NCBI RefSeq assembly: GCF_026571515.1
Contig: NW_026862067.1
Location: forward strand, 62,001 to 126,000
Direction of reading: 5' to 3'
DNA length: 64,000 bases
DNA from: Ruditapes philippinarum
Lineage: Eukaryota
Shown here: piece after piece, positions 21,837 to 63,334 of the stretch
Position numbering within the stretch: position 1 is the first letter of the stretch
How the letters are laid out: each line of letters starts with the position of its first letter
Program-made: the position numbers and the translations under genes
Notes under the pieces: generated by a model
Told to the model about the DNA's origin: nothing
Databases searched by the model: none
The model's input: only the letters and a program-made list of their open reading frames with translations

Positions 21837-22133
<297 letters not shown>

Positions 22134-26422: not shown

Positions 26423-26841
26423 TTAAAGCCTATTTATCAAAGTGCCGGAAAACGTATTCCATCTGTATTTATCTTGGTATATGATATCGCCAGTACTGCT
26501 ACCTGTTTGTGCCTCGACCCAGACGTCTTGTCCGGCCGTCACTATGGCAACTGTATCAGCTGATGAACATCCACGGCCATCATCACCATATATCAATGGT
26601 GCTGAATAGTTATTCCCGTCAATCATTATATTAACAACAAAGTATTTTTTTATGTAAACACAGAAAGCTATACTGAACATGAACGTCCCATTGACGGATG
26701 CTGTAAACTTTCCGGTATCAGTGTTATATGCGCCTCCTTCTCTGAAGACTACTGTAGGAAACACGATGATCCGACCTCCCAACACTGCTGTATTTTCATT
26801 CAGCCTCGCTTTAAATGTAACTGTTGGTGTTACGGCCATAT
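26423..26841 (-). CDS. C1q domain-containing protein A, exon 2 (globular C1q head)
   Basis: FKARL...IVFPTVVFREGGAYNTDTGKFTASVNGTFMFS...WNTFSGTLI are gC1q motifs; acceptor ttttccag|, phase 1. Confidence 0.93.
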
Positions 26842-27172
26842 CTGGAAAAATAATAGAATACATTCACCGCATGCTGTAAATTCACAATGAAACCTTTATA
26901 CCAATGATTTCTATCAAACGACTTTAAATATCTATTTAAGACAAAATATTTATATCAGATTAATTTAATTTTTCGAGTTTTTCATAATTTATGATGCTAG
27001 TATTCAGAGGAAAAAATAAAATGCCAATTTTTCTTTTGACATTATCTTACCAATATCTATCTTTACTATTTCAGCTCTTACACATATATTCAATGTTGTC
27101 ATGGAATTCAATGTTAAGGAATTTTAAATGCATGTTAGAAAATCAATGGGGGACACATGGTTGAAAGTTTAC

Positions 27173-27488
27173 CTTTGAAATTTTGTAGTTCAAGAAGCTT
27201 TGCCCTAACCTCCGATGTAACATTACCGACTTCTATCATACTGGTCTCGAAGCCATTTTCTAGCTCTTGTTGTTTTGTTTTCATTTGATCGCTAACTTCC
27301 GTCTTGATATTTTCAACTCTGTTAACACATTGCTCTACCTCAAGTTTCAGTCTCTCCATTTGAAACTCTATGCGTACCATTTTTTCCAGCACCTTTTCCT
27401 CAAAATCATATTTAGAACAGCGAGGTTCTTCACAATTCCTTCCATTTGTCAACAGAAATAGAAGAAACACTATTTTAGAGAGCGACAT
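27173..27488 (-). CDS. C1q domain-containing protein A, exon 1 (signal peptide + coiled coil)
   Basis: Hydrophobic leader MSLSKIVFLLFLLTNG, then CSKYDFEEKVLEKMVRIE and heptad-like helix; donor G|gtaaac; 331-bp intron; 244 aa in total. Confidence 0.92.
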
Positions 27489-27699
27489 GTCTCACGAATA
27501 ACAAACCTGTTGCTTTTGTTGTTTGCAAGTGAATGAATTAGACGACCTTCATTTTTGCCACGATGTATTCATTAACTTAAAATCATTTTACGGAATCCAA
27601 TTCATGCCACCATGTTACAATCAATGTTGCCTACCTTCTGTGTTGTCTTAGAATAAGAAAAAACAATATAACAAAATTAAAGACTGGTGTTAAATTGTA

Positions 27700-27792
27700 T
27701 ATATAGTTTTCCGGACCTAAAAAAATGATATTGACCAAGGGAAAAAGTCCGAAGTTAGTATAACTTTTAAGGGGTCTGAAAAACTATGTATT
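27700..27792. repeat. Imperfect palindromic repeat fragment (possibly Crypton-like non-autonomous)
   Basis: ATATAGTTTTCCGGACC ... GGTCTGAAAAACTATGTAT inverted arms. Confidence 0.4.
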
Positions 27793-28189
27793 GGCCTTAA
27801 GTCTATCATCTTTGGAATATCACGACTTAAAAAAACCCATCAGGTCAACTCTACACTTCTTTTTGCGGCTAATGACGTCATCGCAAATCAGTCAATCTTG
27901 AAACGGTGCTTTCATGAACGGTATTAGGTATATCGATAGTTGGCATCTTAACTTTGTGAAATTCTATAAATTCTATAATGTGTGTCAATGAGTGATCAAA
28001 TGTCAAACAGTAAAATATTACATTTATTACTTACATTTTTAATACAACAAAAAAGATAAGAATTGTATAAATGTAAACGAGGAACTCGTAATAATATTGC
28101 AATGAAATATCTACTTGAAACAATTGGAGACGAAGCGACTAAGCTAATCTTAACAATTGATATCAAACTAAGTCTACGAAAAAACATAT

Positions 28190-28425
28190 GAGCCGCGACA
28201 CGACAATACCAACGTAATGCGTTTGCAACCTGCATGGATCCAGACCAGCCTGCGCATCCGCGCAGTCTGATCAGGATCCATGCTGTTCGCTTAAAAACCC
28301 TATTACAAGTAGAGAAACTGATAGCGATCAGCATGGATCCTGATCAGATTGCGCGGATGCGCAGGATGGTATGCATCCATGCTGGTCGCAAACGCATTAC
28401 GTTGCTTTTTGTCGTGACGCGGCTC
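28190..28425. mobile_element. Palindromic MITE, Sola2-like
   Basis: GAG...CTC termini, ~100-bp inverted arms, ATAT on both sides. Confidence 0.8.
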
Positions 28426-28951
28426 ATATGAATATCAAGATATCAGTTTAAAATCAGAAGGCCATTATGCTGAATTATCGAATGTGCATATGCTGGATCA
28501 AGACAACTGCAAGGCAATGGATGCACATTTTGCAACATTTACATATTGTGTGAATAGGGCAAGTGAAAACTTAACATTATCAGTTTAAAAATTAATAGCA
28601 AAGACAATATTCCATACTTTGGGCGATACGAAATATGACGCTGAAAACTTATTTGTTCTCCTATACATATGTAAAATATTATATTAATATGATACACGGT
28701 CGTTGTATAATTATGTTAATCCTCTTTTATAGTTATGTTAATGTTTATTCCATCTTTTTTTTATTTTCTACACTGACTTTCTTTCGTTTTTTTTAACCAG
28801 CACACGACTGTGAAATATAAATTTCTAAAATGAATGAAGTATTAACTTCACGGTGATGATCATTAAGACATCAAATATAATTAAATACTTGTGAGTAGTT
28901 TCCCTACGCAGTCAAAGATGTCATACGAAAGATCACAGCAAAAATACATAT

Positions 28952-29186
28952 GAGTCGTGTCACGACAAAACCAACATAGTGGGTTTGCGAGCAGCATGGA
29001 TCCAGACCAGCCTGCGCATCCGCGCAGTCTGATCAGGATCCATGCTGTTCGCTTACCAACCCTATAACAAGTAGAGAAACTGATAGCGAACAGCATGGAT
29101 CCTGATCAGACTGCGCGGATGCACAGGCTGGTCTGGATCTATGCTGATCGCAAACGCACTATGTTGGTTTTGTCGTGACGCGGCTC
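28952..29186. mobile_element. Second copy of the Sola2-like palindromic MITE
   Basis: Same family as 28190-28425; flanks ATAT / AATT. Confidence 0.8.
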
Positions 29187-30411
29187 AATTATCTTGTGAA
29201 TTCGCAAAATACACAATATGTAAGAACACCCGTAGTTTTTAGTTTTAAAGTAAAGATTCAATTACGGATCTAAAACGGAGAAAAATTTGTTGGAATACAT
29301 TTGTGAAATTATAATGTCTTATGAATTTTAAAAAATATTATATTGCAAAATTTTGTCAATTTTTATGCTTACTAAATTAGAATAACATGTTTCGGTTATA
29401 ATTTATTCTTTCCCCATTTCTATTTCATTTATCATAACATTAAGGTACATAAAGGCTTAAACTATATTGGAACTTGTTTTTTTTTATCTCTGCACGACTA
29501 AATTGATGCAAATTATTGGAGTGTATGCATCGTTTAGCTAAAGCTTAGTGGTTTTGACACTGGTCCCGTGTTCATAAACAAAAGATCATGATCAAATGAT
29601 CCTGATTTTATTTCCATTGTTCTATAAAACTAAAATTGATCGTGTTTTTCCTAAAATTAAATGGTACATAGACAAATTGTTAACAAATAACTGATTTGCA
29701 CAGAAACAGGCATTTTTCGGGATGATATCGACAAATAACAAAACAAATACAGAAATAATTGGATCAAAATAAGGTCAATTATAGGATCAGGATTAATATT
29801 TCGATCAACTGTAAAATGTCTTTTTAAATAACAATGTTTTTTTCTCTAAAATTGGCCAATTTCGAGTTTTACACTATTCATTGCGAGAAAACATGCTTTT
29901 TGTGTACATGCTATTATCATATTATACCACCAACAATGCTTTGGTTATCCCGCAAAACTAAGAGATTAGTAGGAACTTTTGGTCAGTATATCTTGAGATG
30001 TCAGACCTGACAGTAACTCTATTTTGTGCATATTTTCACACGGAGATAAAGAATTGCCACTTTATTAAAACATTTACGTACATTACTGTCTTACTAGAGA
30101 GATGTTGATGATAACGAATCGTAACTCTGCAATATTATATATGAATTTCTCTATTTATATCCATTTGAACCAAAGTAAAAGAACACGTGATGTTCTTATT
30201 AAAACGTTTCAGTTTTATGAGGAATAATTCTACCACAATGGTTTAAAATATTGAAGAAGACATTTATATTTGGGATATCAGAAAAGCAAACACCAACAAA
30301 AATATCAAAATAAATATTTTACATGAACAGTCTAAGGAACACTTTATTGAATGAATAGATATCCAATGGCCCCTATTACAGAGACCCCTACCTTACTTCA
30401 AACACAGTGAT

Positions 30412-30663
30412 GTTAGCTTTTTTGTTTAGTATTACGTCGCATTAACACAATATAGGTATTATGGTGACGTTCCAGCTTTACTGGTTGAGTAAGACCTCAT
30501 GTGTCTTTCCGAGCATTATGACATCTGAGAAGAACCATCGAGGTTCCGTAAACTTGCTGGATAACTCCCTCACATAACAGAAGTTAAGGTACCTGTCAAG
30601 ATTCGAGCCTACAGCGGTAGGGGCAAGTGGTTTCACGTCAACGACTCGGCCACGAATGCCCCC
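30412..30663 (-). mobile_element. tRNA-derived SINE
   Basis: Minus strand: A-box TGGCCGAGT, B-box GGCTCGAATC, body with AAGCTGGAACGTCACCAT and A-rich tail. Partial copies at about 25590-25735, 33865-34047, 37990-38150, 40065-40165, 48835-49000, 51875-52060 and 55565-55720. Confidence 0.75.
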
Positions 30664-32401: not shown

Positions 32402-32826
32402 TTAAATCCTCCTATTTATTAATGCCCCGGAGAATGTATTCCAACGGTATGAATCACTATGGTCTGTAATGGTACCAGTACTAGTACCGCCTGATATAAC
32501 CTCGACCCATACCTCCTGTCCGGCGGTCACTATGGCAACTGTATCAGCAGATGAACATCCATGGCCATCATCACCATCGAACAATGACGTTGAATATCTT
32601 GTTCCTTCAACCATTATACTAACAGTCAATGACTTCTTTGAATAGACACAGAAAGCTAAACTGAACATGTACACCCCACTGATGGGTGCTGTAAATTTTC
32701 CGGTACCTGAGTTATACGCATCTCCTTCCTTGAAGATTAATACTGGAAACACTATGGTCTGACCTCCGACCACTGCAGTCCTGGACTTTAATCTTGCCTT
32801 AAATGCAACAGTTGGTGTTACAGTAT
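32402..32826 (-). CDS. C1q domain-containing protein B, exon 2 (globular C1q head)
   Basis: VAFKARL...YNSGTGKFTAPISGVYMFS...WNTFSGALI; acceptor tttctag|, phase 1. Confidence 0.93.
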
Positions 32827-33419
32827 CTAGAAATGAAAAACATAAAGAATTCACAAGCAAGTCATTATATTTTCAATGAAAACTATCTTTTGGTACAACA
32901 CATAATGTTAATTCACAATGAATTTAAATGTTAGATCAAATATTTGTAACAAATTGAATTTAACGAAATAAGTTCATATTCATCGATTTCGAGTCCGTTA
33001 ATATTAAGTTACATAAAATATAATGGGCAACTTCCTTAACCGTTAAAACTGTGAAAAATGAAAGGCTTAAGAAAAATGAAAATAAAGTATATATTTGTTT
33101 TGGGCTGTTTATGACTTATAATACATTTGAATTGTATTTTACACCGAAAACACATCATAAAATGTATGTAGATCAAAAATTTATTGACAATATGAAAGTT
33201 CCAAATTTTTTTTTCGTGAAAGTATGAATAATGAATAGACATGCACCAGTACAAGGGGTATAGTTATTAAGTACCAGTACTTATTAGTACCAGTACTAGA
33301 TCTTGGTTAAGTACTGCAGTGCCAGTACTTTTATTCGGAATTATTTAGTGCCAATACCAGTACTTTCATATATTCACTGTATGTTGCACACTATTAAATG
33401 AAAAAAACATATAACTTTG

Positions 33420-36400
33420 GTGGCGCTTTTATATGTCGCAATGCCGCTAAATGTCGCACTGGTGCTAAATGTCGCACGATTGCCGCTAAGTGTCGCAAAC
33501 TCTGCTACCGTTAAATGTCGCATGGTTTTTCCTTGCCGTTGAATGTCGCAAAACTACCGCTTAAAGTCGCATGATGCATTATGTTTTTTATAAAATTAAG
33601 TTAGCTAGTGGTATTATGTTACAATAGACATTGAGTAAATGTTCGTACATATTTAGTAACTTTATGGGACATAAAGAAATGTCCCGATTCATCTGCTCAC
33701 TCAAGACGAAATATGCTTTTTAAATATCCTTTTTGTTTGAAATTTAAATGTAAAAGCGATTGATTAAGGTATAGTATGTAACTATGATAGGTGTTATGTG
33801 CATCTAATATTAATCTTTTGTAAATTGCTTTGCGTACATAGACAAGTTTATATCTATACAAATGCCCATCCACTTGCCCCTCACCGCTGTTGGTATTCTT
33901 TCATACAAGGAATATGCAACACCTAGTTTACGACAAGTCGCTGGTTGAAATAAGGCGAGGGGGCACCAGAGGTATTTCTTCACTAGCGAAGCTGGAAAGT
34001 CGCAATGTTACCTTACAGCGTTGGTGCAGAGTAAAATCCAACAAAGAAATGTATCAGACTGCTTACTTCGTATATCATACTGTGAGTACAGGCATTCTAC
34101 AATCTGAATATCAACTTGATTATTTTTACAGGTGTCACAGGCACATTCAATATATTCGATGAGTTCTATCCCCAACAAAAATTAATAATTTACGGTACCT
34201 GTTCGATTGTGTGTGCGTGAGTGTTTAAATTCCACTATAACTAGCAATAAACATCTGGGATCACTTATTTTTGTAGGTCTTATCATTCTGTCACGGCTAG
34301 CCGTTAGAATTTCATACTGAAGAACGCAATAGAAAATAACCTAAAACTCCTTAACAATCCGATTGTTTTCCCTTGCTCGAACTCCAGCTTTCACCAAATG
34401 GCCCAAGCACTCAAAATGGTTTTCATGTCAGTAATTACAGATGTCTGTGATTTATGGAATTCAATGTTTTCAAATAGTGATAAAATATTTGAAAGGGATT
34501 TTCTATGTAACATACACTAGTCTACCTACATTTGACATAGATAAGTGACCTGTCATTTTACATAGCAGGCTAGTACAAATTCAGGCGATACCAAAGTCTA
34601 ATAAATATACCATAAACATTTTCATCCTGTAAGACTCATTATATGCAATTTTTGGCATTAGTTTCAACGGCATCAAACTGTCAGAAATGGAATACATGAT
34701 ACAACTTCGCGAAATTTCTTTTCATGTGGATCACCATTAAATGCTCTCGTTTTGTTTTCCGTTCGGAAGGACCAGTTTGAAAATATGTCATATACTAATA
34801 GGATGGATTAAACGGAAGAATTTTACTTTTTCATCAATAATTATCAAAGAAAAAATGTTTAAGGTAGAACGCGACACTTTGCGAACTTTCGAGTAGTGTC
34901 TTGAAAATTGGCATGCAAAAAATGACCATATTTCTGATTGGATTTCGTTGATTTTATTTCAACAGTTTCAGCCAATTTTTGTACACATGACGTCAAAGTT
35001 GACTATCAAAGCCCGTTTTTTAACATGACGTCGTTGCGTATCCTTGGCAACTGTTACGGGTATTACAACGCCATAGGCGGACAAAATATCTTAAATCCTA
35101 CAGCATTCGTTGGAAATTATTTTTTCCTTTAAGCAGACATAAAATTTATTGTTTTACGCCGAAAATTGTTTGAGAAATGGAAAGAAAATTGTCAATTTTG
35201 TGTAAAATTTGACGTTCAGTTTAGCCGCAATTTTCGGCTTTAAAGCGGCTTATTTAAAAATTCCTGAAATAAATTTTTGATTTTTTTCTTTAAACGTCCT
35301 TTAAAATGTATACTTAGTCAAAATAACTAAAAAAATTAGGGGGTCACCGACTCAATTTTTTCGGTACACGTGATTTTATTTCCCCCACCCCTTTGGATAA
35401 AAGTCACGCTATCACGGGGCGTTTGGTTTTTTGATGTTATTAAAACGATCGCCCTGTGTCAAAATCCCGCTTTTTACGGCATTTTACGCTATTATGACCA
35501 CTGCGGAAAATATATGGATACAATAAAGGGTACGGAATTCCGTATATTATAGATAGACAGGTAAAAATAAGTGAAATTTGATGTACGGGACCGTATATCA
35601 TGCAATACGTATATGACTAATATACCGTGATCCGTACACTCGTAATATGCGGGAACTTTGAATGAAGTTCGTATTTACTAAAATACGTATTTTTTTAAAT
35701 TACACGATCAGATATTACCAAAATATGTTTTTTTTATTCTTGTAAATACAGATTTTGTATATAAAACAGTGAATAAAGATGTACTTCAGAATTACCCACT
35801 TTCTACAAGAGGAAAGAAATAATAGTCTGATCTGACATTTGTCAGAATAACATTAAATAGTAAAACTTTGAGTAAAATGTAATATTTCTCGGTTTTATTA
35901 ACATGTCAGTTGCATACTGATTAAATAGTTAGTGAAACATCGACAGATCCTCTACAGTGCCCGTAGCATGTACAGACAAAAAAATGACAATATATATTGA
36001 ATATCTTTATTTTGTATAAAGATTTACAACGCAACACTCCTTTGTGCAGTATCTAGCTCAGGGCCGCCGGTTCGCTAAAATCCGCAGACGTGTATTTACA
36101 GCGTTTCATTATATTTCATGTTTAAAATAATGTTTCTAAATTTTCCTGTTCCTAAAATAAATTCTACCATAAATTTGGCTATACAGTGAATAATGAATAT
36201 TTGCAAAGGCCGATTTGTTAGTAATGTTTTTAATACAGCGTTTATGGTGAATCCTCAATTAATCGTTATTTTTAACATTATGATATTCTAAAATGATAAG
36301 CAAAACGAGAGAATATGTATTACAGATACTTGTAGAATCGAAAGTGCTACATCTGTAATCCAACACCCACTGAGCTAACGTTTCAAGCATGACTGTTTGC

Positions 36401-39400
36401 TTCACGCTAATATAATTGACTAAGTTTCATTTATGAACCGTATATTTTAATTTGTCAGTATTTCGCCAATTCTGTCAAATTGTTGCAATAGTTTTTTATT
36501 ACAAGTGAAATTCAAATTCTGGGTTTTAATAGGTGAAATAAAATACATATCACTCACAGTATATCACTCATAGTGTGGGTAATGCAAAATGTATAGATTT
36601 GCAGAATTTCTTGTAGACTACGTATTAATTTATGATTGAATTTCCGTAAATTTCTAAATTTACATAAAAATATATACATTTTGTAGTTGCTTTTTGTTCC
36701 TTAAGGCATATTTCTCGATTCAAGTTTATTAATCTAATCTTATTGTATTACAATATCAAAAAGGAACACCGCAAATGATTACTCTCAGCTGTATTTATTT
36801 TTGTTTGCGCAGCGTACGCGTTGCCGTTGAACGCCTGGCGTCATTTTCTTTACATGCGTCTGTTTACAATTCCTTATGAAGTTATTAACATGCTTAAAAA
36901 CAAGAAAAAAAAATCGTTTTTTTTTTCCGTACAATTTTAAGAATTTGCAATGGAACAATGTTGTTGTTGGTTTATATGTATTAGTAAAACTCTAGAACTA
37001 TTCTCCTGATAAGCTGAACATTATTGCCGCACTTTGAAGTCTCAGACGTATCTGCATACGTAAGACTTTCGTTACAAAATTACTCACGGGGTTGGTGAAA
37101 TAAAATCACGTGTACCTAAAAAAAATGAGTCGGTGACCTCCTAATGTTTTTAGTTATTTTGACTAAGTATACATTTTAAAGGACGTTTAAAGAAAAAAAA
37201 ATCAAAAATTTATTAATAAGCCGCTTAAAAGCCGAAAATTTCGGCTTAACAGAACGTCAAATTTTACACAAAATTGACAATTTTTTTCCATTACTCAAAC
37301 AATTTTTGGCGTAAAACAATAAGTTTTATATCTGCTTCAAAGAAAAAATAAATTCCGTCGAATGCTTTAGAATTTAAGATATTTTGTCCGCCAATGGCGT
37401 TGAAATACCCGTAACAGTTGCCAAGGATACGCAACGACGTTATGTTCAAAAACGGGCTTTGATGGTCAACTTTGACGTCATGTGTACAAAAATTGGCTGG
37501 AACTATTGAAATAAAATCAACGGAACCTAATAAGAAATATGGTCAATTTTTTGCATGCCAATTTTCAAGACGCTACTCGAAAGTTCGCAAAGTGTCGCGT
37601 TCTACCTTAACTCAAACGAAAACGAAAAGTGTAAAATTTTGAAGAATTGAATCAATAAAAATAAATAAATAAATAAATAAATAAAGAAAAAAATAAAGAA
37701 AAAAAAAGAAAAAAAAAAGAAAAAAGGAAACTAAAAAAATGTACAATGTGTCTGAGTCCTTATAAACTTGAATCTACAAACCAAGTGAATCTTGAAAGGA
37801 TACAATCTAAGACGGGTTCACTCATGTATACAAAAAGAGGGTTGACAATAAAAGAGGAGTGACACTAACCATTTAACCACGGGGTCCATAATTTTGAGCA
37901 ATGAGATATTAAATGTGTTGAAACACATATTATCTCATTGCCAAATACCTAAATTGTGGGTGTGAGTGTGTATGGAGAGGGGGGGGGGGGAAGCGTCGGT
38001 GGTTTACAGAACGTCGGTGGTTTTACCCAGGTGCCTATTCGTGCCTGAAATAATGCGCGTACACTTGAGGTCGCCTCAAGTCGCCAAATGACCTATTTTG
38101 TGTCGGTGTGTCGTAACGCCCAATCAAACATAACCAAAGCAAAATAGAGAAAACCAGAATCCCTTAAGAAAGGCTAACACTGCAAAATGGACAATGTTGA
38201 TAGAGCCTGTTCATGAACGGCACTGGAAAGTGCAAATTACCGGATTTGTTCATACCGTATGTGTTCATACGGCGATTATCATGGAACCCTCAATGTGACA
38301 CAGTAGTGCCATATGACATTTATCAAAATCATTTATAGTGACTGCAATTAAAATCCGATGGAAATTTCAAAACGAGGTAATTACATAATCATACGTGCAT
38401 GTACATGTGTAATTAAATTAATAAGAACTAACATAAATTTCAGTCTTTCAAATCTATGTAACTAATGTAAACGATATGTCTTGCAATACGATTATATAAA
38501 ATACTTCAATGTATAATAATTAAGGCAAAGCGGAAATTTTCTTCCTAATGTAGATTATTTTAAGCAAGACTTTTGTCATTGAACTGGAACGTTAATCCGT
38601 GCTAAATCCACGGAAAATGCGACTCCTCACTTGAATACTGTTTGTGTGACAAATGACTGGTCTCTTAACGCGCAACAATGTCCTATTACATCGCTTGTTG
38701 CCATTAAATAAAACATGAACTTAAGTAACTAGAAACAAATCATATTAAATTTGACATGTAAGTATCATCTTGTGTAATCACCAGACCGTCAGGTTAGACC
38801 AATAAGTAAAGTGTCTGTCGTACTTGTGGTCAAGGTGGAGAAGTTCAAAAGCATAAACTGGGAATGAAGATACTTTTTACTGGCAATGAAAAAAAATAAA
38901 TAAAAAAGCAAAAAAACGAATAAGGTTTGTTTGCATCAATGAAATTTATAAAACTGTAATCCAATTGTGACAATATAATAATACCTATAAAATAATTCTT
39001 ATAATACCTTTAAATCCGAAAGCATACATGCTTGTATGTGGGAGGCCGACACACAGTATAAAATACTGATCTATAATTAAAAACTAAGTCTATTTTTTAA
39101 GATAATCTTTTAGGCGTGTTAGATCCATCTCAAGCTGATGCTGTGGCTTTAACCAACAACATCTGGGTTGCTAAATGGGGAAAAACAAATGAGTTTTATC
39201 ACTAAGAGGCCCTTAATATTGACATAAAACATTTGTTTAAATTGCGATGTTAAACGGTGGTGTTGTGACATTTAACGGTAAGGGAAAATCGTGCAACATT
39301 AAACGGCCGTGTTGCGACATTAATTTTATGATACAAGATTTTGCGACATTTACGGCGTCAACGACATTTAGTGGCAATGGTACGACATTTTGCGGCAAAT

Positions 39401-39425
39401 GCGACATTTATCGACGTTAAAACAT
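33420..39425. mobile_element. Old DNA transposon with long inverted ends built from AAATGTCGCA repeats (intron of gene B)
   Basis: Array at 33430-33571 is the reverse complement of the TGCGACATTT array at 39243-39415; present in both duplicate copies; superfamily not established. Confidence 0.6.
34863..37606. mobile_element. Non-autonomous Kolobok-like DNA transposon, 2744 bp, ~520-bp TIRs
   Basis: TTAA|GGTAGAACGCGACAC...GTGTCGCGTTCTACC|TTAA; the paralogous site at 55201-55204 has a single TTAA; GG...CC ends with a TTAA TSD fit Kolobok rather than piggyBac. Confidence 0.88.
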
Positions 39426-40371
39426 TTATGACACATTCACACCTTCATTTAATTGCAAATACTTTATTATTCTTTGACATCTGTTTGCATTTATCAGATA
39501 CACTTACAATCTGTGACTATAGCGAAAGTAAATTCAATTCAATACTAATCCACATGATAATTTCTCTAAAGCTTCATTTTCATGTAGTACAATTTCATAT
39601 ATTAATTTCTTTACCATGGTTGTCTTAAATGAAACGAAAGATTTAAAACAAATTATTAAAATAATATATGAGATTAAAGTTATCTCTTTACATATATTTC
39701 TGAAAACCAATGAACTGCCTTGGTACTGCAGTACAAGTTCCGCATTTTGTATACTGTAGTGCAGTACCATTACTAGTAGTAGCAAAATATGGTGTGAGTA
39801 ATTTTCAGTACCCCCAGTACTTACAAAAAAGACTGCATCGCGTACTGTACTACCAGTACCGCACGTCTAATACAGGTTGTTTAATGTTTTAATACTTAAT
39901 ATTATATTTTACATGATCATTTATATAAATATCAGCGGACGTTCAAAGATAAAAGTAAATCAGTATGTTCTGTTAAAATGCAGTAAATATAAAAAAGCCG
40001 CAATGCTTCGGACCTCATAGCATTGTAGTAACCCTAAGTCAACTCCAGACCTTAAACATACTTTAGCCTTTTTTGGGCACCAAGCCTTAGCCTATGGCGA
40101 CTTTTCAGCTTTACTGATGGAGGAAGATCTTACGTTAATTTTTCCTGGCACGCACGGACCCTTCAATGCTACGAGGACCATAGTGCTAGGTAATAGTCAT
40201 AAAGTTAGTCATTACTTTACTCCAGATTTGATTTTTTTAACTACTGTTAAATGCATTCTTATTTGTATCATCTGTAATACACATCTTCAATAATTCAACG
40301 AAAATAAAAACAACTCAAAGATTATGTCTTACATGCATCGTAGAAAAACAGTAAATGTGACGTTATTTTAC

Positions 40372-40681
40372 CTTGAAGTTCAAGAAGCTTTGCCTTAACT
40401 GCCGATGTGACATTACTGACGACTTCTTTCATACTGGTCTCGAAGCCATTTTCAAGTTCTTGTTGATTTGCTTTCATCTGATCACTAACTTCCGTCTTGA
40501 TATTTTCAACTCTGTTAACACATTGCTCTACCTCAAATTTCAGTCTCTCCATTTGAAACTCTATGCGTACCATTTTTTCCAGCACCTTTTCCTCAAAATC
40601 ATATTTAGAACAGCGAGGTTCTTCACAATTTCTTCCATTTGTCAAAAGAAATAGAAGAAACACTATTTTAGAGAGCGACAT
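40372..40681 (-). CDS. C1q domain-containing protein B, exon 1 (signal peptide + coiled coil)
   Basis: Near-identical to exon 1 of gene A; donor G|gtaaaa, phase 1; 7545-bp intron; 244 aa in total. Confidence 0.9.
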
Positions 40682-46088: not shown

Positions 46089-46759
46089 CAAATTAAGAAG
46101 CTGTTTTCTTGTGATAAACAGACTAAATACAGCCATTGTCGCCGGATCAAAATGTAGAGTTATTGACTAAGAATTATTTAAAAAGGACCATAATAATTTG
46201 TCTCCTAGATGCTGAACAAAAACTCCAACTGTCTTATAGATGTCACTCATAATCATCCAATTAGTGTGATTAACTGTATCTAGTCGTTACGGTATATTTA
46301 TATGCAGTTAAACTTGGATTGTATGTAATTTGGGCAAACCTACTTGTATATTGTTTACGTATGTACTTATCATGGAATGGCGATTGATTGATTATATAAT
46401 TTGAAAAAATTTCAAATAATAAATTGGTTAATTCTGCCATACTCTTCCCAGAACGTCTGTATTTCGAGATTTTTTATTTGCTATCATATCATACAAGCTA
46501 ACTCTCATTAAAGTAGGCGGTTGTCGGAGGTAAAAGTGCCAGTTTAAGAGTTTGTCTTTACTGGTTTACCTATTTATTAAGCTAAGGTTGCTTCTCCAGT
46601 GTCGTCAAATGAATAAATTATTCAACTGTCTCTGTTTGTTCTTGATTGAGTTTTGTTGCTTTTAAGCTTAAAGTATTAAAGGGATATTTTCTTTGAACAT
46701 GGACCGTGAAACGGTCTGTACTACATTACAATAAAGATAACAAACCGTAATAATGACCT

Positions 46760-46952
46760 ATGTTATCAGATGAATATCATTGCCATCAAAGTAAAACCAT
46801 TCCAGTCAATCATTTGACTAACAATCTTTTACTGAATATGTGCGCCCAATTGACGGATGCTGTAAACGTTCCGGTATAAATTAGGATTATACACAGACGC
46901 TACACCACTGTCGTATGATCGTTTAATTTTGCTTTAAATGTTACAGTAAATG
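46760..46952 (-). pseudogene. Decayed C1q head exon (A-type relic)
   Basis: tttttctag| then FTVTFKAKLNDHTTVV* and ...TGTFTASVNWAHIFS; ACTGAATATGTGCGCCCAATTGACGGATGCTGTAAACGTTCCGGTAT aligns to gene A 26673-26718; stops and deletions; no exon 1 found. Confidence 0.75.
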
Positions 46953-47463
46953 CTAGAAAAAGATAGATTAGAACAAATTTTCCGGGTAATTTAAAGTGAC
47001 ATTATGCTCATTATTTTTGCTGTCAAATTTGGCTGAATTAGTACTATATTTCAAAAGATTGTTAATTATACTAGTGATTGACCCATAATTGATATTGAGG
47101 AATGTTTAAGACAAAATGCAAAAACTACCTTAATACAAAAAGACTGTCCCACTATGATACTGATCAAACTTGTAAACTTGTGACATAATTATTATGTTCC
47201 TAGTTTTGCGGTCCATATTAACCCTATTAAAAAACTGTATCAAGAAACAGGAACCATGGTATGACCATAGCTTAAGAGACAATGACTTTAACTTCTAAGT
47301 TTTAAAAGAAAGTTTAATGTTTTTACTTTAACTGACAAATGTAATGTATGCTTTCAAAATATGAATTGGCAAACCAAACATATATTAAAAAAAGAATGGT
47401 CCGTGGTCACGAGAATCAATCCGTTAATGTATGTTTTCTTATCCATTAATATATACCAGCTAG

Positions 47464-47636
47464 CGCAGTTTTTATGCGAGAATATAGTGCTAATGTACCC
47501 CTTTTTTCGTGCATTAATCTCTGCAGGAGCACGAGGACGCATTTTTTCGGACTCGAGCTATAGTAAGTCCGAGGGCTACTGCATGTGTACCTGCACGAAA
47601 AAGGCACATTAACGCTATCCTTGCAAAAATATGCGT
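47464..47636. repeat. Palindromic repeat (possibly Crypton-like non-autonomous)
   Basis: Inverted arms ...TTTTTCGTGCA / TGCACGAAAAA... around a CGGACT...AGTCCG central hairpin. Confidence 0.5.
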
Positions 47637-50416: not shown

Positions 50417-50835
50417 TTAAATCTTCCTGTTTATTAATGTCCCGGAGAATGTATTCCAACGCCATGTATTATGTTTTATTATGGTGCCAGTATTACCGCC
50501 TGGTATAACCTCGACCCATACCTTCTTTCCTGCGGTCACTATCGCAACTGTATCAGCTGATGAACGACCACTGCTACCATCACCATTGAACAATGACGCT
50601 GTATATTGTGTTCCTTCAACCATTATCTTAACAGTCAATAACTTGTTAGTGTAGACACAGAAAGCTAGACTGAACGTGTACATCCCACTGACGGGTGCTG
50701 TAAATTGTCCGGTGTCTGTGTTATATGCGTCTCCTTCCTTGAAGATTAATACTGGAAACACTATTGTCTGACCTCCCACCACTGCAGTATTGACATTTAA
50801 TCTTGCCTTAAATGCAATAGTTGGTGTTACAGTAT
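50417..50835 (-). CDS. C1q domain-containing protein C, exon 2 (globular C1q head, open)
   Basis: IAFKARL...YNTDTGQFTAPVSGMYTFS...WNTFSGTLI; same acceptor context as gene B. Confidence 0.88.
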
Positions 50836-52341
50836 CTAGAAATGAAAAACATAAAGAATTCACAAGCAGGGGATGATATTTTTCAAATTCAACTTAATAT
50901 CATTTGATACAACACATGCTGTTAATTATCAATCAATTTAAATGCTAGATAAAATATTTGTATCAAATTTGATTTAACGAAATAAGTACATGTACATATT
51001 TATCGTTTTCGAGTCCGTTTATTAGTTTCATGAAATATAAGGGGCAACTACATTAACCTTTTAATTGTCAAAAATGAAAGGCTAAAAAAATGAAAATAAA
51101 GTATCTATTTGTTTGGGGCTGCTTATGATTTATAATACATTTGAATTATTTTTTACACCGAAAACATATCATAAACTGTATGTTAATCTAATATTTATGG
51201 ACAATATAAAGGTTCCAAAAAGACTGTTTGTGAAAGTATGGATACTGAATAGACATGCCCCAGTACAAGGGGTATGGTCATTAAGTACCAGTACTCATTA
51301 GTACCAGTACTAGATCTTGGTTAAGTACTGCAGTACAAGTACTTTTATTCGGAATTATTAAGTGCCAGTACCAGTACTTTCATATATTCACTGTATGTTG
51401 CACACTGTTAAACGAAAAAAACATATAACTTTTGTGGCGCCTTTATATGTCGCAATGCCGCTTAATGTCGCACTGGTGCTAAATGTCGCACGATTGCCAC
51501 TAAGTGTCGCAAACTCTGCTATGTTAAATGTCGCACGATTTTCCCTTGCCGTTAAATGTCGCAACACTACCGCTAAATGTCACATAATGCATTTTTTTTA
51601 TAAAATTAAGTTAGCTAGTGGTATTATATTACAATAAACATTGAGTAAATGTTCGTACATATTTAGTAACTTTGTGGGACATAAAGAAATGTCCCGATTC
51701 ATCTGCTGACTCAAGATGTAAAATGCTTTTTAAATATCATTTTTGTTTGAAATTTAAATGTAAAAGCGATTGTTTAAGGTATAGGTCGTAACTATGATAG
51801 GTGTTATGTGCATATAATACTTATCTTTTGTAAATTGCTTTGCCTGCTTAGACAAGTTTATATCTATACTTCTGTCCATCCACTTGCCTCTCACTGCTGT
51901 TAATATTCCTTCATACGAGGAAGATGCAACACCTAGTTAACGACAAGTCGCTAGTTGAAATAATGCGAGGGGGCACCTGAGGTATTTCTTCACTAGCAAA
52001 GCTGGAAAGTCGCAATGTAACCTTACAGCGTTGGTGCGAAGTGAAATCCAACAAAAAAAAAATTGTATCAGACTGCTTATTTCGTATAATTACATTACTG
52101 TGAGTACTAGCTTTCTACAATCTGAATATCAACTTGATTATTTTTACGGGTGACACAGGCACATTCAATATATTCGATAAGTTATAGACCCAACAAAAAT
52201 AATAATTAACGGTACCTGTTCGTTTGTGTGTGCGTAAATTTGCGTGAGTGTAAATGTATGTGTTATTTAAATTCCACTGTCACCAGCAATAAACATGTGA
52301 GATCACTTATTTTTGTAGGTCATATCATTCTCCGTTAGAAT

Positions 52342-54686
52342 ACAAGGTTAGCTTTTAAAAAAGCTAGTAGCAACTCGCTTCGTAATTTTTTTTTCAAGGG
52401 TGTGTTTAAATGTAAAAAATGATAGTTATTTTAGCTGAAGAGACTTCAGCGAACATCAAAATAAAAGTGACATATAAAGTTATGGAAGCCAGTTCTCTCA
52501 GTTTAACAAAGAGGAATATGAGAATATATGAAGATGCAAGTAAACAGATAGAATGAAGTCCCTATGTCTATTCACAATTACTATATGGCCTGTTGACCTT
52601 GACCAAATTTTTTTTTAGATAGGTAGAATTCATAAAGATGTCTTTTTATACGAAGTTAAGTTGTAATATGTTATTTAGTATTAGAATGAGTGACAGACAC
52701 AAGTCCTAAAGTCAACACAAGTTGTCAATCAATTCAGCCAGAAAAGCCGGGATCGTATTAAAAAATATAGGGATCCCGGAAATTGATGTTTTTCAGATAA
52801 GCTGGGATCGTATTAAAACATATAGGGATCCCGGGAATTGACCAATTCAAGAATATAGTTTTCAGAAAAGCCGGGATCGTATTAAAATATATAGAGATCC
52901 CAGGAATTGGTCAGTTCAAGAATGTAGTTTTTAGAAAAGCTGGGATCGTATTAAAACATATAGGGATCCCGGGAGTTGACCAATTCAAGAATATAGTCTT
53001 TGATTTTTCCAATTAATTAAGCATATAATTATAAGTATTGTGATTTCCGAATTTTAAGTTTGTTAATAAAAAGCTCTAATATATCTATATCCTAAGTTAA
53101 ATTAATTTAACGTTCATAACATACAATAAAAAAATAAAAACTTAACGTTTAATGGCCTTTCATTACGACAATAATCAACACAAATATAGTTTATTAGTTT
53201 TTCCTCTATATCTAATACGATCTCGGTTCCCGGGCGTCCCGGATCCCGGGATTTCCCCCCACCAGTAAATACATACACTAAATACCGGAAAGGATAAAAT
53301 GACCGGAAAAAAGAAAAAGAAAAATGCACAGAACCAGATGTACACTTATGTTAATTAACCAAACGAAAACTTACTAGAGAGAAAACAGGTGAAATCGCTA
53401 AATCAAAAGTCAGTGTAAATATGATTTATTGAAAATAATTCATGAAAGCAAACATTTTAATCATCATTATATCTTTGCGTCAAAGCAATACTTGCTGCTT
53501 TTTAAAAATGGCGTACAAATTGAAGGTTTTTTGACGCTATGTAAGATTAAATTTGCTTGGCTAAATAATTTTGGATTCCAGCCTTGACAGATAAATTTTG
53601 TAGAAAGCTGGAAGCCAAGCTTCGATTAAATTTTTGGATGGATTCGGAGTTTTAGGTTGTTTCTCAGTAAAATCCTAACATAATACCGGCTCACCGAGGC
53701 GAGCCGGCATAATACTGATTATAGCATAAAATCGGCTATTTTTTCCCTTTTTTGCCTATGTTATAACGGGACCAAAACCATGTGTTAACATAGTCACGCG
53801 CTCTTGATATAGCCCGGTTTTACCTATGCGCAATACATAAAGGGCCAAGTAAATAAACAAAAAAAAAAAAAAAAAAAAAAAAAGACGATTTGGCCTGTTT
53901 GCCAAAGTGATATATTGAAGTTATTGATTCGAGGGCCTCAATCGCATAACGACGAGCAGAATTCAAGTAACTAGATCTATGCCGGAAATACGGCGTATAG
54001 ACATCGCCGCTAATCTTGGCTGTCGCCCTTTCTAAGAAACGGACAGTTGTCAATGTAAACAAATAAATATCATTCAGTTTAACCCTCAAATCAACTTACA
54101 AAACAAGATAACATAAAATGAATATGAGAAAATATTGTTTTACTGATGTTTATATCGATAAATGCTCTTTATATTTCTTTAAGAGAATAATGTTTAGTGC
54201 CTGATATTCTTTTATAAAATTGTGAGCTTGAAAAAAAACCGATTCTGGGGTCACTGATCTTTTTTCTACCATAATCTGAAATCATTCTAGGAATTTCTGA
54301 GGGTCATGTTTTGTCTTGGCAGAGTAATTTAATGTTTTTTCTTGAGTTAATAAATCTCCAATGTTAAGCTTTGTTAAATCAATTAAAATTCGAATTTTCG
54401 AACGGTTCTGAGCATTTGAATTTCCCAAGTAGTTGGCCCCGGAAAAATAAAACGCATACGTAAAACATGAAGAATTGGATAAATACCGTCCAAGCAAAAG
54501 GATTTAATGTATATGTTTTGTATTAAATATACACCATGAATCTTTTTTAAATTTGTATCCTATAATAGCGTCAATGCACATTTATTTCGTGTTATAAAGT
54601 CTGCAGAGTCCCTTGGAACTGTTGGAGCCCTCGCCCTACCGTCTGCAAGACGTTATAACACGAATAAACGTGCGTTAACCCTATAA
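52342..54686. mobile_element. Composite ~2.3-kb segment specific to copy 2 (HINE-like end, 69-bp repeats, hairpins)
   Basis: Absent at the paralogous position ~34310; contains GC hairpins at 53229-53250 and 53685-53708 and a palindrome at 54561-54686. Confidence 0.6.
52739..52997. repeat. 69-bp tandem repeat, ~4 copies
   Basis: GGGATCGTATTAAAACATATAGGGATCCC core; units start at 52739 (short), 52794, 52863 and 52932. Confidence 0.9.
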
Positions 54687-57629
54687 TAACGCAATAGAAA
54701 ATAACCTAAAACTCAGTGCCAAGTGACAATCCAAATGTTTCCTCTGGCTTGAACTCCAGCTTTCACCAAATGGCCCAAACACTCACAAATGTTTTTATGA
54801 CAGTAATTACAGACGTGTGTGATTTATGGACTTCAATGTCTTCAAAAGTGTTTAATATAAAATATCTGATTGATTTTGTCCATGTAACATACACTAGTAT
54901 ACCTACATTTGACATAGATAAGTGACTTGTCATTTAACATAACAGGCTAGTACAAATTCAGGAGATACCAAAGTTTTAATATACCATGAAAATTTTCATC
55001 CTTTAAGACTACTTACATTAGTTTTAACTGCATCAAACTGTCAAACTTCGCGAAATTTCTTTTCATGTGGATCACCATTAAATGCTCTGTTTTTGTTTTC
55101 CGTTCGGAAGGACCAGTTTGAAAATATGTCATAATACTAATAGGATGGATTAAACGGAAGAAGTTTACTTTTTCATCCATAATTATCAAAGTAAAAATGT
55201 TTAACTCAAACGAAAACGAAAAGTGTAAAATTTTGAAGAAATAAATAAAATAAATAAATGAATAAAAAAAATAATGAAAAAATAAAAAATAAAGAAAGAA
55301 AAAAGGAAATAAAAATGTACCATGTGTCTGGGTTCTTATAAAATTAAATCTACAAACTAAGTGAATCTAGTTAGGATAGATTCTAATACGGGTTCACTCA
55401 TGTATACAAAAGAGGGTTGACAATAAAAGAGGAGTGACAATAACCATTTAACCACAGGGTCCATAATTTTGAGCAATGAGATATTAAATGTGTTCAAACA
55501 CATATTATCTCATTGCCAAAAACCTGAATTGTGGGTGTGTTTATGGGGAGGGAGTGGGGGGGGGGAGCGTCCGTGGTTTACGGAACGTCGGTGGTTCTAC
55601 CCAGGTGCCTATTCGTGCCTGAAATAATGCGTGTACACTTGCGGTCGCCTCCAGTCGCCAAAAGACCTATTCTGTGTCGGGGTGTCGTAACGCCCAATCA
55701 AACAAAACCAAAGCAAAAAAGAGAATCAGAACCAGAATCCCTTAAGAAAGGCTAACACGACAAAATGGACAATGTTGCAGGCTTGGTTTGATAGAGCCTG
55801 TTCATGGACGGCACTGGAAAGTGCAAATTACCGGATTTGTTCATACCGTATGTGTTCATACGGCGATTATCATGGAACCCTCAATGTGACACAGTAGTGC
55901 CATATGACATTTATCAAAATCATTTATAGTGACTGCAATTAAATCCGATGGAAATTTCAAAACGAGGTAATTACATAATCATACTTATTTAAATTAATAA
56001 GAACTAACATAAATTTCAGTCTTTCAAATCTATGTAACTAATGTAAACGATATGTCTTGCAATAAGATAATATAAACTACTTCAATGTATAATAATTAAG
56101 CCAAAGCGGAAATTTTCTTCCTAATGTAGATCATTTTAAGCAAGACTTTTGTCATTGAACTGGAACGTTAATCCGTGCTAAATCCACGGAAAATGCGATT
56201 CCTCACTTGAATACTGTTTGTGTGACAAATGACTGGTCTCTTAACGCGCAACAATGTCCTATTACATCGCTTGTTGCCATTAAATAAAACGTGAACTAAA
56301 GTAACTAGAATCAAATCATATTAAATTTGACATGTAAGTATCTACTTGTGTAATCACCAGACCGTCAGGTTAGACCAATAAGTAAAGTGTCTGTCGTACT
56401 GGTGGTCTACATGGAGAAGTTCAAACAAAAGCATAAACTGGGAATAAATATACTTTTTACTGGCAATGAAGAAAAAAGAATAAAAAAGCAAAAAACGAAT
56501 CAGGTTTGTTTGCATCAATGAAATTTATAAAACTGTAATCCAATTGTGACAATATAATAATACCTATAGAATAATACTTATAATACTTTTAAATCCGAAA
56601 GCATACATGCTTGTAGGTGGGAGGTCGACACACAGTATAAAATACTGACCTATAATTAAAAACTAAGTCTATTTTTTTAGGATAATCTTTTAGGTGTGTT
56701 AGATTCATCTCAAGCTGATGCTGTGGCTTGAACCCACAACATCTGGGTTGCTAAATGGGAAAAAACACAAATGAGTTTTACCACTAAGAGGCCCTTAATA
56801 TTGACATAAAACGTTTGTTGAAATTGCGATGTCAAACGGTGGTGTTGTGACATTTAACGCTAAGGGAAAATCGTGCAACATTAAACGGCCGTGTTGCGAC
56901 ATTAATTTTATGATACAATATTTTGCGACATTTAGTGGCAATGGTACGACATTTTGCGGCAAATGCGATATTTATCGACGTTGAAACATTTATGACACAT
57001 TCCCACTTTCATTTAACTGACAAATACTTTATTATTCTTTGACATATGTTTGCATTTATCAGATACACTTACAATCTGTGACTATAGCAAAAGTAAATTC
57101 AATTCAATACTAATTCACATGAAAATTTCTCTAAAGCTTCATTTTCATGTAGTACAATTTCATATATTAATTTCTTTACCATGGTTGTCTTAAATGAAAC
57201 GAAAGATTTAAAACACATTAATAAAATAATATATGAGATTAACGTTATCTCTTTACATATATTTCTGAAAACCAGTGAACTGCCTTGGTACTGCAGTACA
57301 AGTTCCGCATTTTGTATACTGTAGTGCAGTACCATTACTAGTAGTAGCAAAATATGGTGTGAGTAATTTTCAGTACCTCCAGTACTTACAAAAAAGACTG
57401 CATCGCGTACTGTACTACCAGTACCGCATGTCTGATACAGATTGTTTAATATTTTAACACTTAATATTATATTTTACGTGATCATTTATATAAATATCAG
57501 CGGACGTTCAAAGATATAAGTAAATCATTATATTCTGTTAAAATGCAGTAAATATAAAAAGCCGCAATGCTTCGGACCTCATAGCATTGTAGTAACCCTA
57601 AGTCAACTCCAGACCTTAAACATACTTCA

Positions 57630-57848
57630 GCCTTTTTTGGGCACCAAGCCTTAGCCCATGGCGACTTTTCAGCTTTACTGATGGAGGAAGATCTTACGTT
57701 AATTTTTCCTGGCACGCACGGGCCCTTGAGTAGAAGTAAGGTATCTGACATAAAAGAATTCAAAGTCCCTAGCAGAATTCGAATCCACATCGGTGTGGGC
57801 TGGTTGTTTGAGGTCAGCGACCTTAACAACTCAGCCATGGAAGCTTCC
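57630..57848 (-). mobile_element. tRNA-derived SINE with intact head
   Basis: Minus strand TGGCTGAGTTG A-box and GATTCGAATTC B-box; the head is missing from the paralogous copy at ~40160. Confidence 0.7.
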
Positions 57849-58072
57849 TAACTGATCGGTTTCTACAATGCTACGAGGACCATAGTGCTAGGTAATTGTC
57901 ATAAAGTTAGTCATTACTTTACTCCAGATTTGATTTTTTAACTACTGTTAAATGCATTCTTCTTTGTATCATCTGTAATGCACATCTTCAATAATTCAAC
58001 GAAAATAAAAACATCTAAAATATTATGTCTTACATGCATCGTAGAAAAACAGTAAATATGACGTTATTTTAC

Positions 58073-58378
58073 CTTGAAGTTCAAGAAGCATTGCCTTAAC
58101 TGCCGATGTGACATTACTGACTTCTTTCACACTGGTCTCGAAGCCATTTTCAAGCTGTTGTTGATTTGTTTTCATTTGATCACTAACTTCCGTCTTGATA
58201 TTTTCAACTCTATAAACACATTGCTCTACCTCAAATTTCAGTCTCTCCATTTGAAACTCTATGCGTACCATTTTTCCAGCACCTTTTCCTCAAAATCATA
58301 TTTAGAACAGCGAGGTTCTTCACAATTCCTTCCATTTGTCAAAAGAAATAGAAGAAACACTATTTTAGAGAGCGACAT
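58073..58378 (-). pseudogene. C1q domain-containing protein C, exon 1 with a 1-bp frameshift (real or sequencing error)
   Basis: Near-identical to exon 1 of A and B, but the T6 run is T5 at 58271-58275; ATG at 58378 and donor G|gtaaaa are intact. Confidence 0.75.
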
Positions 58379-63248: not shown

Positions 63249-63334
63249 TCTGTGTGTAAGACTATCAAAATATGATAAGTATTTATTTTTTTGAACAATT
63301 TTGTCAGTTAGATGAATGTACTGTTTTTTTTTTT

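What the first reader, a model, noticed from the sequence alone, without database searches (positions are those of the whole stretch)
26423..58378. Constant stalk, variable head: exon 1 homogenised across C1q paralogues while head exons diverge
Seen: genes A and B differ at only 3 of the first 195 coding nt, silent sites included, yet their sequence diverges within ~10 bp upstream of the ATG, their introns show no clear similarity, and their heads are only about two-thirds identical by eye. Head residues are mosaic: C shares NxNTAV, YNTDTG and SGTLIN with A, while B shares GKF, GDDGxGC and YRW with A. Known: coiled coils trimerise bivalve C1qDC proteins. Inference: gene conversion keeps stalks interchangeable, which would allow heterotrimers with mixed recognition heads, a combinatorial innate-receptor system.
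Basis: partly seen in the sequence, partly recalled or inferred. Interest (0 to 1): 0.7.

Follow-up and report, generated by a model that had tools for sequence, protein, structure and literature searches.

The report
Recombinant clam C1q gene, selected heads
Three clam C1q-type genes share a near-identical stalk exon, likely because selection conserves the stalk while diversifying the head loops and because gene A likely arose by recombination that put a relative's promoter and stalk on an old, unique head; mixed trimers are only predicted, and the case is mostly ordinary gene-family evolution.

Summary
In detail: A and B differ at 3 of the first 195 coding nt and their heads are 66% identical. 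It is not an assembly collapse; independent contigs and 10 spliced reads support gene A. Stalk-specific homogenisation does not hold. Across ten close relatives (L group), silent divergence is equal in exon 1 and exon 2 (dS 0.184 vs 0.197; exon 1 lower in 24 of 45 pairs). Only amino-acid divergence differs (dN 0.045 vs 0.120). Head loops are under positive selection (LRT 66) and the stalk is not. Both exons show recombination. Gene A is the exception, a chimera: its promoter and exon 1 are L-type, while its intron and head are old and unique (dS 0.21 vs 0.66, 10 of 10 pairs). B and C carry a second breakpoint just before the ATG, so A and B overlap in exon 1 only. The 'mosaic' head motifs differ at silent sites. 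C is frameshifted in this assembly. A B2A head trimer passes prediction (0.77 vs 0.00), but by likeness to solved C1q trimers. Tandem bivalve C1qDC arrays with selected heads are published; the chimera is the new detail. The scan's notes held no earlier report of this.

The parts
27173..27488 (-). Gene A exon 1: signal-peptide-like N-terminus, C-x5-C motif and coiled-coil-type stalk; L-type up to about nt 300, ancestral-type 3' end (QNFK)
   Evidence: nested in the L clade, UFBoot 100
26842..27172 (-). Gene A intron, 331 nt, phase 1, GT-AG, no homologue found in the genome
   Evidence: splice in 10 RNA reads
26423..26841 (-). Gene A exon 2: C1q head of an old lineage, single copy in the assembly (best other match 76% nt)
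   Evidence: Pfam PF00386 55.6 bits
27489..29430 (-). Gene A upstream region, homologous in blocks (70-84%) to the upstream of alpha-type L genes on other contigs, not to B or C
40372..40681 (-). Gene B exon 1 (alpha-type exon and intron start behind a gamma-related upstream)
32827..40371 (-). Gene B intron, 7545 nt, with a 2.74-kb TIR insertion absent from C
32402..32826 (-). Gene B exon 2: C1q head; positively selected sites R15, S65, D83, G87, H88, D121, S123, Y126 (exon-2 numbering)
58073..58378 (-). Gene C exon 1 with a 1-nt deletion in an A-run near 58271-58275 (frameshift, stop after 39 codons): pseudogene allele or assembly error
50836..58072 (-). Gene C intron, 7237 nt, homologous to the B intron
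50417..50835 (-). Gene C exon 2: intact C1q head

Best explanation
A, B and C are two-exon coiled-coil (type II) C1q-domain genes in a tandem array in which purifying selection likely holds the stalk constant and positive selection likely diversifies the head loops, and gene A is likely a recombinant that joined an L-type promoter and exon 1 to an old, unique intron and head. How it works: (1) Shown: exon 1 codes for a signal-like helix and one long helix with heptad character; exon 2 codes for a C1q beta-sandwich. (2) Shown: within the L group silent divergence is the same in both exons, while amino-acid change is about 2.7 times higher in heads and concentrated in about 10% of head codons. 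(3) Inferred: unequal crossing-over and gene conversion act in both coding exons, which are the islands of homology between otherwise diverged repeat units, and shuffle upstream, stalk and head. (4) Inferred: one such event, resolved in the last ~15 nt of exon 1, made A; a second, just before the ATG, gave B/C an alpha-type exon 1 behind a gamma-related upstream. The two genes therefore overlap in exon 1 only, which looks like stalk-specific conversion. (5) Inferred: A's head, about 25% diverged, has escaped further exchange. (6) Inferred from family knowledge: the products are secreted trimeric pattern-recognition lectins; mixed trimers are possible but untested.
For: Pooled dS/dN: L-L exon 1 0.184/0.045, exon 2 0.197/0.120, exon 1 lower in 24 of 45 pairs; A-L 0.207/0.043 vs 0.658/0.236, 10 of 10; sister array 0.269 vs 0.216, exon 1 lower in 34 of 105. 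Trees: A exon 1 inside L (UFBoot 100); A exon 2 outside L+S38/S109 (97); AU rejects swapping the trees. At L-vs-S diagnostic sites A is L-like through nt 297 and carries the ancestral 9-nt 3' end. A upstream matches five alpha genes and not B/C; B/C upstream is gamma-related but the intron start is alpha-like, 90-92%. Site models: L heads M2a vs M1a LRT 65.7, omega2 5.8 at 10% of sites; exon 1 LRT 0; sister-array heads LRT 138.9 in the same loops. With simulated heavy recombination and no selection the largest of 58 null LRTs was 14.9, against 59.5 observed. PHI: L exon 1 p about 0.001; L exon 2 p 0.007-0.011 at two of three window sizes (0.12 at the third); sister exon 2 p 2e-4. Fixed silent differences between intron-defined lineages: exon 1 0 of 49 vs intron 23 of 174 (p=0.003); exon 2 0 of 100 vs 11 of 163 (p=0.008) and 1 of 100 vs 23 of 168 (p=2e-4). 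The stalk-start motif is conserved in protein where silent sites are saturated (L vs sister array pS 0.83, pN 0.04), in Mercenaria and Mactra proteins, and at 150 or more loci of this genome.
Against: Codons 20-49 of exon 1 have lower silent divergence than the head within L (dS 0.083 vs 0.197; about 17 silent sites per pair; four-fold sites of codons 20-66 0.089 vs 0.155), so some extra exchange in the stalk core is possible; the sister array does not show it at four-fold sites (0.188 vs 0.148). In A vs B the 5' part of exon 1 is less diverged at silent sites than the 3' part (2 of 41 vs 7 of 22, p=0.006), and A shares long identical runs with L13a and C (Bonferroni p=0.03); this fits repeated conversion of A's exon 1 rather than one event. 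The expressed A allele of run X24 carries three exon-1 variants (nt 30, 48, 97) found together in L13b, L51b and L51z (unphased). The fixed-difference statistic is biased low (controls gave only 3-9 fixed silent sites), and two other exon-1 contrasts were not significant (p=0.18, 0.15). Some copies on other contigs may be alleles or haplotigs (C5177/C8459 94.8% over 5.6 kb). No donor for A's head was found.
Confidence: 0.75

Rival explanations
1. One reading: ongoing gene conversion specifically homogenises exon 1, selected so that stalks stay interchangeable and mixed heterotrimers form a combinatorial receptor repertoire.
For: Low silent divergence in the stalk core within L; no fixed differences in codons 18-104 between alpha and gamma lineages; 5'/3' heterogeneity and long identical runs in A exon 1; paralogue-type variants in an A allele; B2A head trimer 0.77 vs best control 0.00, a mark reached by 51 of 78 solved and 2 of 108 mismatched pairs in the tool's calibration; A and an S84-type paralogue are both expressed in run X24 (10 and 7 reads).
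Against: Family-wide dS is equal in both exons; exon 2 is equally stripped of fixed silent differences and is recombinant; the sister array has higher dS in exon 1 and large stalk length changes (exon 1 196-571 nt); C is frameshifted and B nearly silent in X24; the complex pass needed no stalk and can come from likeness to solved trimers.
Confidence: 0.15
2. No recombination: exon 1 is simply more constrained at the DNA level, or mutates more slowly, and A's head diverged fast.
For: Strong purifying selection on the stalk core (omega about 0.09); A's head has a long branch and the reference allele carries several private changes.
Against: A's head differs from L heads at silent sites as much as the S lineages do (dS 0.66 vs 0.52-0.64); A's intron and 3' flank are unalignable to L while its upstream is alpha-type; silent sites of the core are saturated against the sister array, so they are free to change; AU tests reject one tree.
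Confidence: 0.06
3. Assembly artefact: exon 1 copies were collapsed or polished towards one consensus, or A is a mis-join.
For: The assembly is fragmented; two of 13 L/A exon-1 copies (C, L51b) have one-base frameshifts in A-runs, typical of long-read error.
Against: Independent contigs bridge A's head-intron-exon 1 and exon 1-upstream; 10 spliced reads join A exon 1 to A exon 2; the exon-1 copies differ from each other by a median of 10.5 nt in the first 195.
Confidence: 0.04

Closest known systems
Bivalve sC1q-like type II (coiled-coil) C1qDC tandem clusters, Crassostrea virginica (PMC6835236; passages and section 2.4 read)
   Same: Signal peptide + coiled coil + C1q head; two exons; same-strand tandem paralogues ascribed to unequal crossing-over; positive selection at roughly 5-10% of head sites with the rest under negative selection (here 10%).
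   Different: That paper's text has no occurrence of 'conversion' and the passages read report no chimeric genes; here exon trees conflict, both exons are recombinant and A is a stalk/head chimera.
Vertebrate C1q/CTRP/adiponectin/cerebellin homo- and heterotrimers (PMC9952994 and PMC6409975, passages)
   Same: Same head fold (best Foldseek hits Caprin-2, Cbln1, C1ql, C1QTNF5, C1q); heteromers are known and seem to form among closer relatives.
   Different: Collagen rather than coiled-coil stalk in CTRPs; the gC1q head can be sufficient for heteromerisation there, which argues against the stalk as the gatekeeper; heteromers are shown for only a few of 120 pairs.
Domain-restricted gene conversion in clustered protocadherins (PMC2764143, passages)
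   Different: Converted fish clusters show dS ratios of about 38 to over 1000 between domains, and little-converted clusters 1.6-3.4; here L-L is 1.07 and A-L 3.2.
CEACAM32 escape from concerted evolution (PMC7042247, abstract only)
   Same: A paralogue whose leader exon still takes part in conversion while its ligand-binding exons escape, like gene A.
   Different: Ig-domain vertebrate receptor; in A the shared part includes the promoter and the whole stalk.

Membership tests
Bivalve sC1q-like type II C1qDC | C-terminal C1q domain | tested here: met
   PF00386 at 55.6, 62.5 and 60.3 bits for A, B, C, cut-off 23.7; the model of paralogue P0001 matches solved C1q heads
Bivalve sC1q-like type II C1qDC | Coiled-coil region, no collagen, before the head | tested here: met
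   One helix, residues 26-102, in the P0001 model; hydrophobic residues at 8 of 10 a/d positions in A residues 28-60, weaker after; no Gly-X-Y repeat in the exon-1 peptide
Bivalve sC1q-like type II C1qDC | Signal peptide | tested here: inconclusive
   Hydrophobic N-terminal helix, residues 3-17; no signal-peptide predictor was run
Bivalve sC1q-like type II C1qDC | Tandem same-strand cluster with positively selected head sites | tested here: met
Bivalve sC1q-like type II C1qDC | Lectin or microbe-binding activity | not testable with these tools
   Family knowledge only (PMC6835236, PMC10672478 passages); database names for relatives say 'heavy metal-binding protein HIP-like'
Domain-restricted concerted evolution (protocadherin type) | Silent divergence much lower in the homogenised domain across the paralogue group | tested here: not met
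   L-L dS 0.184 vs 0.197; sister array 0.269 vs 0.216; only the 30-codon core is lower (0.083)
Domain-restricted concerted evolution (protocadherin type) | Exchange confined to one exon | tested here: not met
   PHI and fixed-difference signals in both exons
Domain-restricted concerted evolution (protocadherin type) | Homogenised domain groups by species, free domain by orthologue | not testable with these tools
   No close-species DNA held (one search says G000 has no relatives here); only distant Mercenaria and Mactra proteins were returned
Chimeric (recombinant) paralogue | 5' and 3' parts, flanks included, have different phylogenetic positions with a locatable breakpoint | tested here: met
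   junction in the last ~15 nt of A exon 1; supported in independent runs
Heterotrimeric C1q/CTRP complexes | Different chains co-assemble | tested here: inconclusive
   Prediction only: 0.77 vs best control 0.00, runs agree in at least 91% of contacts, partner pLDDT 78; like complexes are solved and close cousins usually pass
Heterotrimeric C1q/CTRP complexes | Co-expression in the same secreting cell | not testable with these tools

The most novel reading that the evidence does not exclude
These arrays work as a combinatorial receptor kit. A stalk-start motif kept at 150 or more loci and a conserved trimer core let different paralogues co-assemble, recombination swaps promoter-plus-stalk cassettes onto old heads (gene A), and selected residues at the seam between subunits (D83 and Y126 lie in the predicted interface) build composite binding sites that exist only in heterotrimers.
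Probability: 0.2. Interest if true: 0.65.

Novelty: new member of a known kind. Interest (0 to 1): 0.33.

Why it matters
Bivalves carry hundreds to over a thousand C1qDC genes (PMC6835236, PMC10672478, passages), explained so far by tandem duplication and head selection. This locus adds direct evidence that the arrays also recombine inside the coding exons, and that a head can acquire another lineage's promoter and stalk, a quick way to re-wire the expression of an old specificity. It also warns that whole-protein trees of C1qDC genes can mislead. If heterotrimers were shown, the functional repertoire would exceed the gene count; A, B and the S-type genes make a compact test set.

Tried and rejected
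Head-motif mosaicism as recent conversion: rejected; five of six motifs differ at silent sites, and no pair involving A is among the ten best exon-2 runs, none of which is significant after Bonferroni. Exon 1-to-foreign-exon 2 cross-splicing in this window: no such joint was listed for A in X24; the joint table was swamped by a repeat at 28.2-29.2 kb, so B-to-A splicing was not properly tested, and C was never laid. No RNA holder was listed by the run search. Runs X21 and X22, filed as RNA, gave depth in all 30 bins with loose ends at GATC and look like proximity-ligation DNA, so they were not used for expression. X23 gave low depth on A exon 2 and none on A exon 1; not used. Allele variants as proof of ongoing exon-1 conversion: 9 of 10 exon-1 variants match a paralogue, but so do 9 of 11 exon-2 variants, mostly as ancestral states; only the variants listed were examined (63 more were not shown). 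Search for a donor of A's intron and head: none. Tree-free count of head changes: 4 of 138 codons had 5 or more replacement steps where about 1 is expected if all codons were neutral, weak on its own. Rows left out: S13b and S84p (decayed) and O97j (extraction failed) from all codon alignments; L51z, L84z and S13c lack a usable exon 2; L13d (75-nt deletion) from the exon-1 PHI, run, site-model and exon-1 fixed-difference tests; O12a and from alignments A1/A2. The L51b rows are wrong (frame slip) and are replaced. Literature searches for C1qDC + bivalve + gene conversion (1 review listed, not read), C1q domain + heterotrimer + mussel (5 listed), chimeric gene terms, concerted-evolution lectin terms (none) and C1qDC + recombination + paralogous + clam (3 listed, not read) showed no report of this in the listings; subscription journals are not searched and no supplements were read.
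Full report
Anatomy. The window holds three minus-strand, two-exon genes: A (exon 1 27488-27173, intron 331 nt, exon 2 26841-26423), B (40681-40372, 7545 nt, 32826-32402) and C (58378-58073, 7237 nt, 50835-50417). Each exon 2 is a C1q domain. Exon 1 codes for a hydrophobic N-terminus, a C-x5-C motif and a long helix; the model of the full-length paralogue P0001 has a helix at 26-102 and a beta-sandwich that matches solved C1q heads. Protein names returned for the relatives say Ruditapes philippinarum. B and C are an ~18-kb tandem duplication with alignable introns (82-96%). C lacks one A in a run near 58271-58275 and stops after 39 codons. No contig or read showed a deletion at the matching place of A, which weakly favours an error or a private allele.

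The observation. A and B differ at 3 of the first 195 nt, two of them silent, and at 13 of the next 111. Heads share 90 of 137 residues. Similarity stops about 10 nt before the ATG and at the donor site. Independent contigs bridge head-intron-exon 1 and exon 1-upstream of A, and 10 RNA reads make its splice, so the structure is real.

The wider family. A genome search with A exon 1 gave 37 matches. I fetched the arrays and built codon alignments for 18 exon-1 and 15 exon-2 copies of the near family (A; a long-intron L group that includes B and C; short-intron S genes) and 15 genes of a sister array. Some copies may be alleles on separate contigs.

Is exon 1 homogenised? Not as a rule. In 45 L-L pairs pooled dS is 0.184 in exon 1 and 0.197 in exon 2, and exon 1 is lower in 24 of 45; dN is 0.045 against 0.120. 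In 105 sister-array pairs exon 1 has the higher dS (0.269 vs 0.216). Only pairs with A differ: 0.207 vs 0.658, in 10 of 10. A's exon 1 is as far from L genes as they are from each other, while its head is as far from them as the S lineages are.

Gene A is a chimera. Its exon 1 falls inside the L clade (UFBoot 100) and its exon 2 outside L+S38/S109 (97); AU tests reject exchanging the trees (p about 1e-5 and 3e-5). At sites that separate L from S genes, A is L-like through nt 297 and then keeps a 9-nt 3' end that L genes lack. Its upstream aligns in blocks for about 1.9 kb with five 'alpha' L genes on other contigs and not with B or C; its intron aligns with nothing found. B and C have a gamma-related upstream (67-73%) but an alpha-type exon 1 and intron start (90-92%), which places a second breakpoint just before the ATG. 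A and B thus overlap in exon 1 only. Repeated conversion of A's 5' exon 1 remains possible: silent differences to B are 2 of 41 in the 5' part and 7 of 22 in the 3' part (p=0.006), and runs shared with L13a and C pass Bonferroni (p=0.03).

Exchange acts on both exons. PHI detects recombination within L exon 1 (p about 0.001), L exon 2 (p 0.007-0.011 at two of three windows) and the sister heads (p 2e-4). L-only exon trees also conflict, and exon-1 and exon-2 dS are uncorrelated (rho -0.02). Lineages defined by adjacent intron sequence have almost no fixed silent differences in either exon (0 of 49 vs 23 of 174; 0 of 100 vs 11 of 163; 1 of 100 vs 23 of 168), although the statistic is biased low and two further exon-1 contrasts were not significant. 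Silent divergence regresses on flank divergence with slope 0.53 for exon 1 and 0.20 for exon 2, so heads are, if anything, the more shuffled part.

Why stalks are constant and heads variable. The stalk-start motif has pN 0.04 against the sister array where silent sites are saturated (pS 0.83). It is nearly unchanged in Mercenaria and Mactra proteins, and a 44-residue query finds the search's maximum of 150 loci among 323 candidates. This is purifying selection. In heads, M2a beats M1a (LRT 65.7; 10% of sites, omega 5.8); exon 1 shows nothing; the sister array shows the same in matching loops (LRT 138.9). Simulated recombination without selection gave at most 14.9 in 58 runs. That these loops lie at the tip of the head, away from the stalk, rests on the alignment to adiponectin and C1q and on recalled C1q topology. 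Five of the six shared 'mosaic' motifs differ at silent sites, so they are best read as ancestral or convergent residues.

Heterotrimers. Two B heads with one A head scored 0.77 against a best control of 0.00; the runs agree in at least 91% of contacts and the partner's pLDDT is 78. The mark was reached by 51 of 78 solved and 2 of 108 mismatched pairs, but C1q trimers are solved and close cousins usually pass, so this shows likeness only. Interface positions are slightly less variable than others (1.62 vs 1.97 states, p=0.056); A equals B at 34 of 47 of them; two of eight selected sites (D83, Y126) lie in the interface. The prediction used no stalk. In vertebrate CTRPs the head can suffice for heteromers, which form only on co-expression (PMC9952994, passages). 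In run X24, A is expressed at low depth, B's head is near zero, and 7 reads match an S84-type paralogue (matched by eye).

Comparison with what is known. The genes are sC1q-like type II C1qDC genes. Tandem clusters, unequal crossing-over and selection on 5-10% of head sites are published for oyster (PMC6835236, passages and section 2.4); the function of the coiled coil is described as not established experimentally (PMC10672478, passages). The family fails the per-domain dS test used for protocadherins (PMC2764143, passages): ratio 1.07 here against 38 or more in converted clusters. Gene A works like CEACAM32, whose leader exon converts while the binding exons escape (PMC7042247, abstract). 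Searches listed no report of conversion or chimeras in bivalve C1qDC genes; the library lacks most subscription journals. The scan's own notes gave one transposon note in another C1q intron of this genome and nothing on this pattern.

Verdict. A real observation and a real recombinant gene in a known kind of array. The constant stalk is mostly selection, exchange is not stalk-specific, and the combinatorial-receptor idea is plausible but untested. Interest 0.33; the most novel reading has probability about 0.2 and would deserve 0.65.

Noticed in passing
window 34859-37610: 2.74-kb insertion in B's intron with long terminal inverted repeats (about 530 nt, 90%), a TTAA target-site duplication and GG termini; the site is empty in C at 55201-55204. 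Kolobok-like by recalled features; not classified by any search.
   Followed up: partly
G000:C9746:103274-144290: Database isoforms X1, X3 and X4 (P0026, P0014, P0027) join three different upstream exon 1s to one exon 2 whose own exon 1 has a GA donor in this assembly. Could be real cross-gene splicing into an orphan head or an annotation artefact.
   Followed up: partly
G000:C9746, C3896, C12137: The sister array varies stalk length widely (exon 1 196-571 nt, with 40-residue repeats), while the first 30 stalk residues stay fixed and the heads are selected in the same loops as in the L group.
   Followed up: partly
window 26423-27488 (alleles in runs X24, X1, X4, X10): Gene A is highly polymorphic: the X24 allele differs at 11 or more head positions, 8 of them amino-acid changing, and 10 or more exon-1 positions.
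   Followed up: partly
window 18654-22136 (+): Deltex-family E3 ligase gene (RING and DTC domains over their cut-offs) next to the end of the C1q array, with 59-nt and 27-nt perfect tandem repeats in its first large ORF.
   Followed up: partly
window 28179-28433 and 28941-29187: Two copies of a palindromic ~250-nt MITE-like repeat upstream of A, very abundant in reads.
   Followed up: no
window 62421-63722 (+): Gag-like ORF with a CCHC zinc knuckle and overlapping ORFs, likely the start of a retroelement; observed only.
   Followed up: no
window 46830-46877; G000:C10554:129878-129939; C13434:60358-60585; C5177:102600-102854; C8459:109066-109240: Decayed C1q head fragments recur in the repeat units of the array; several short-intron S-type genes are broken.
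   Followed up: no
proteins P0009, P0010, P0006-P0008: Database models of B, C and three relatives start at an internal Met and omit the signal peptide and cysteine motif; the model of C also ends in a different exon.
   Followed up: no
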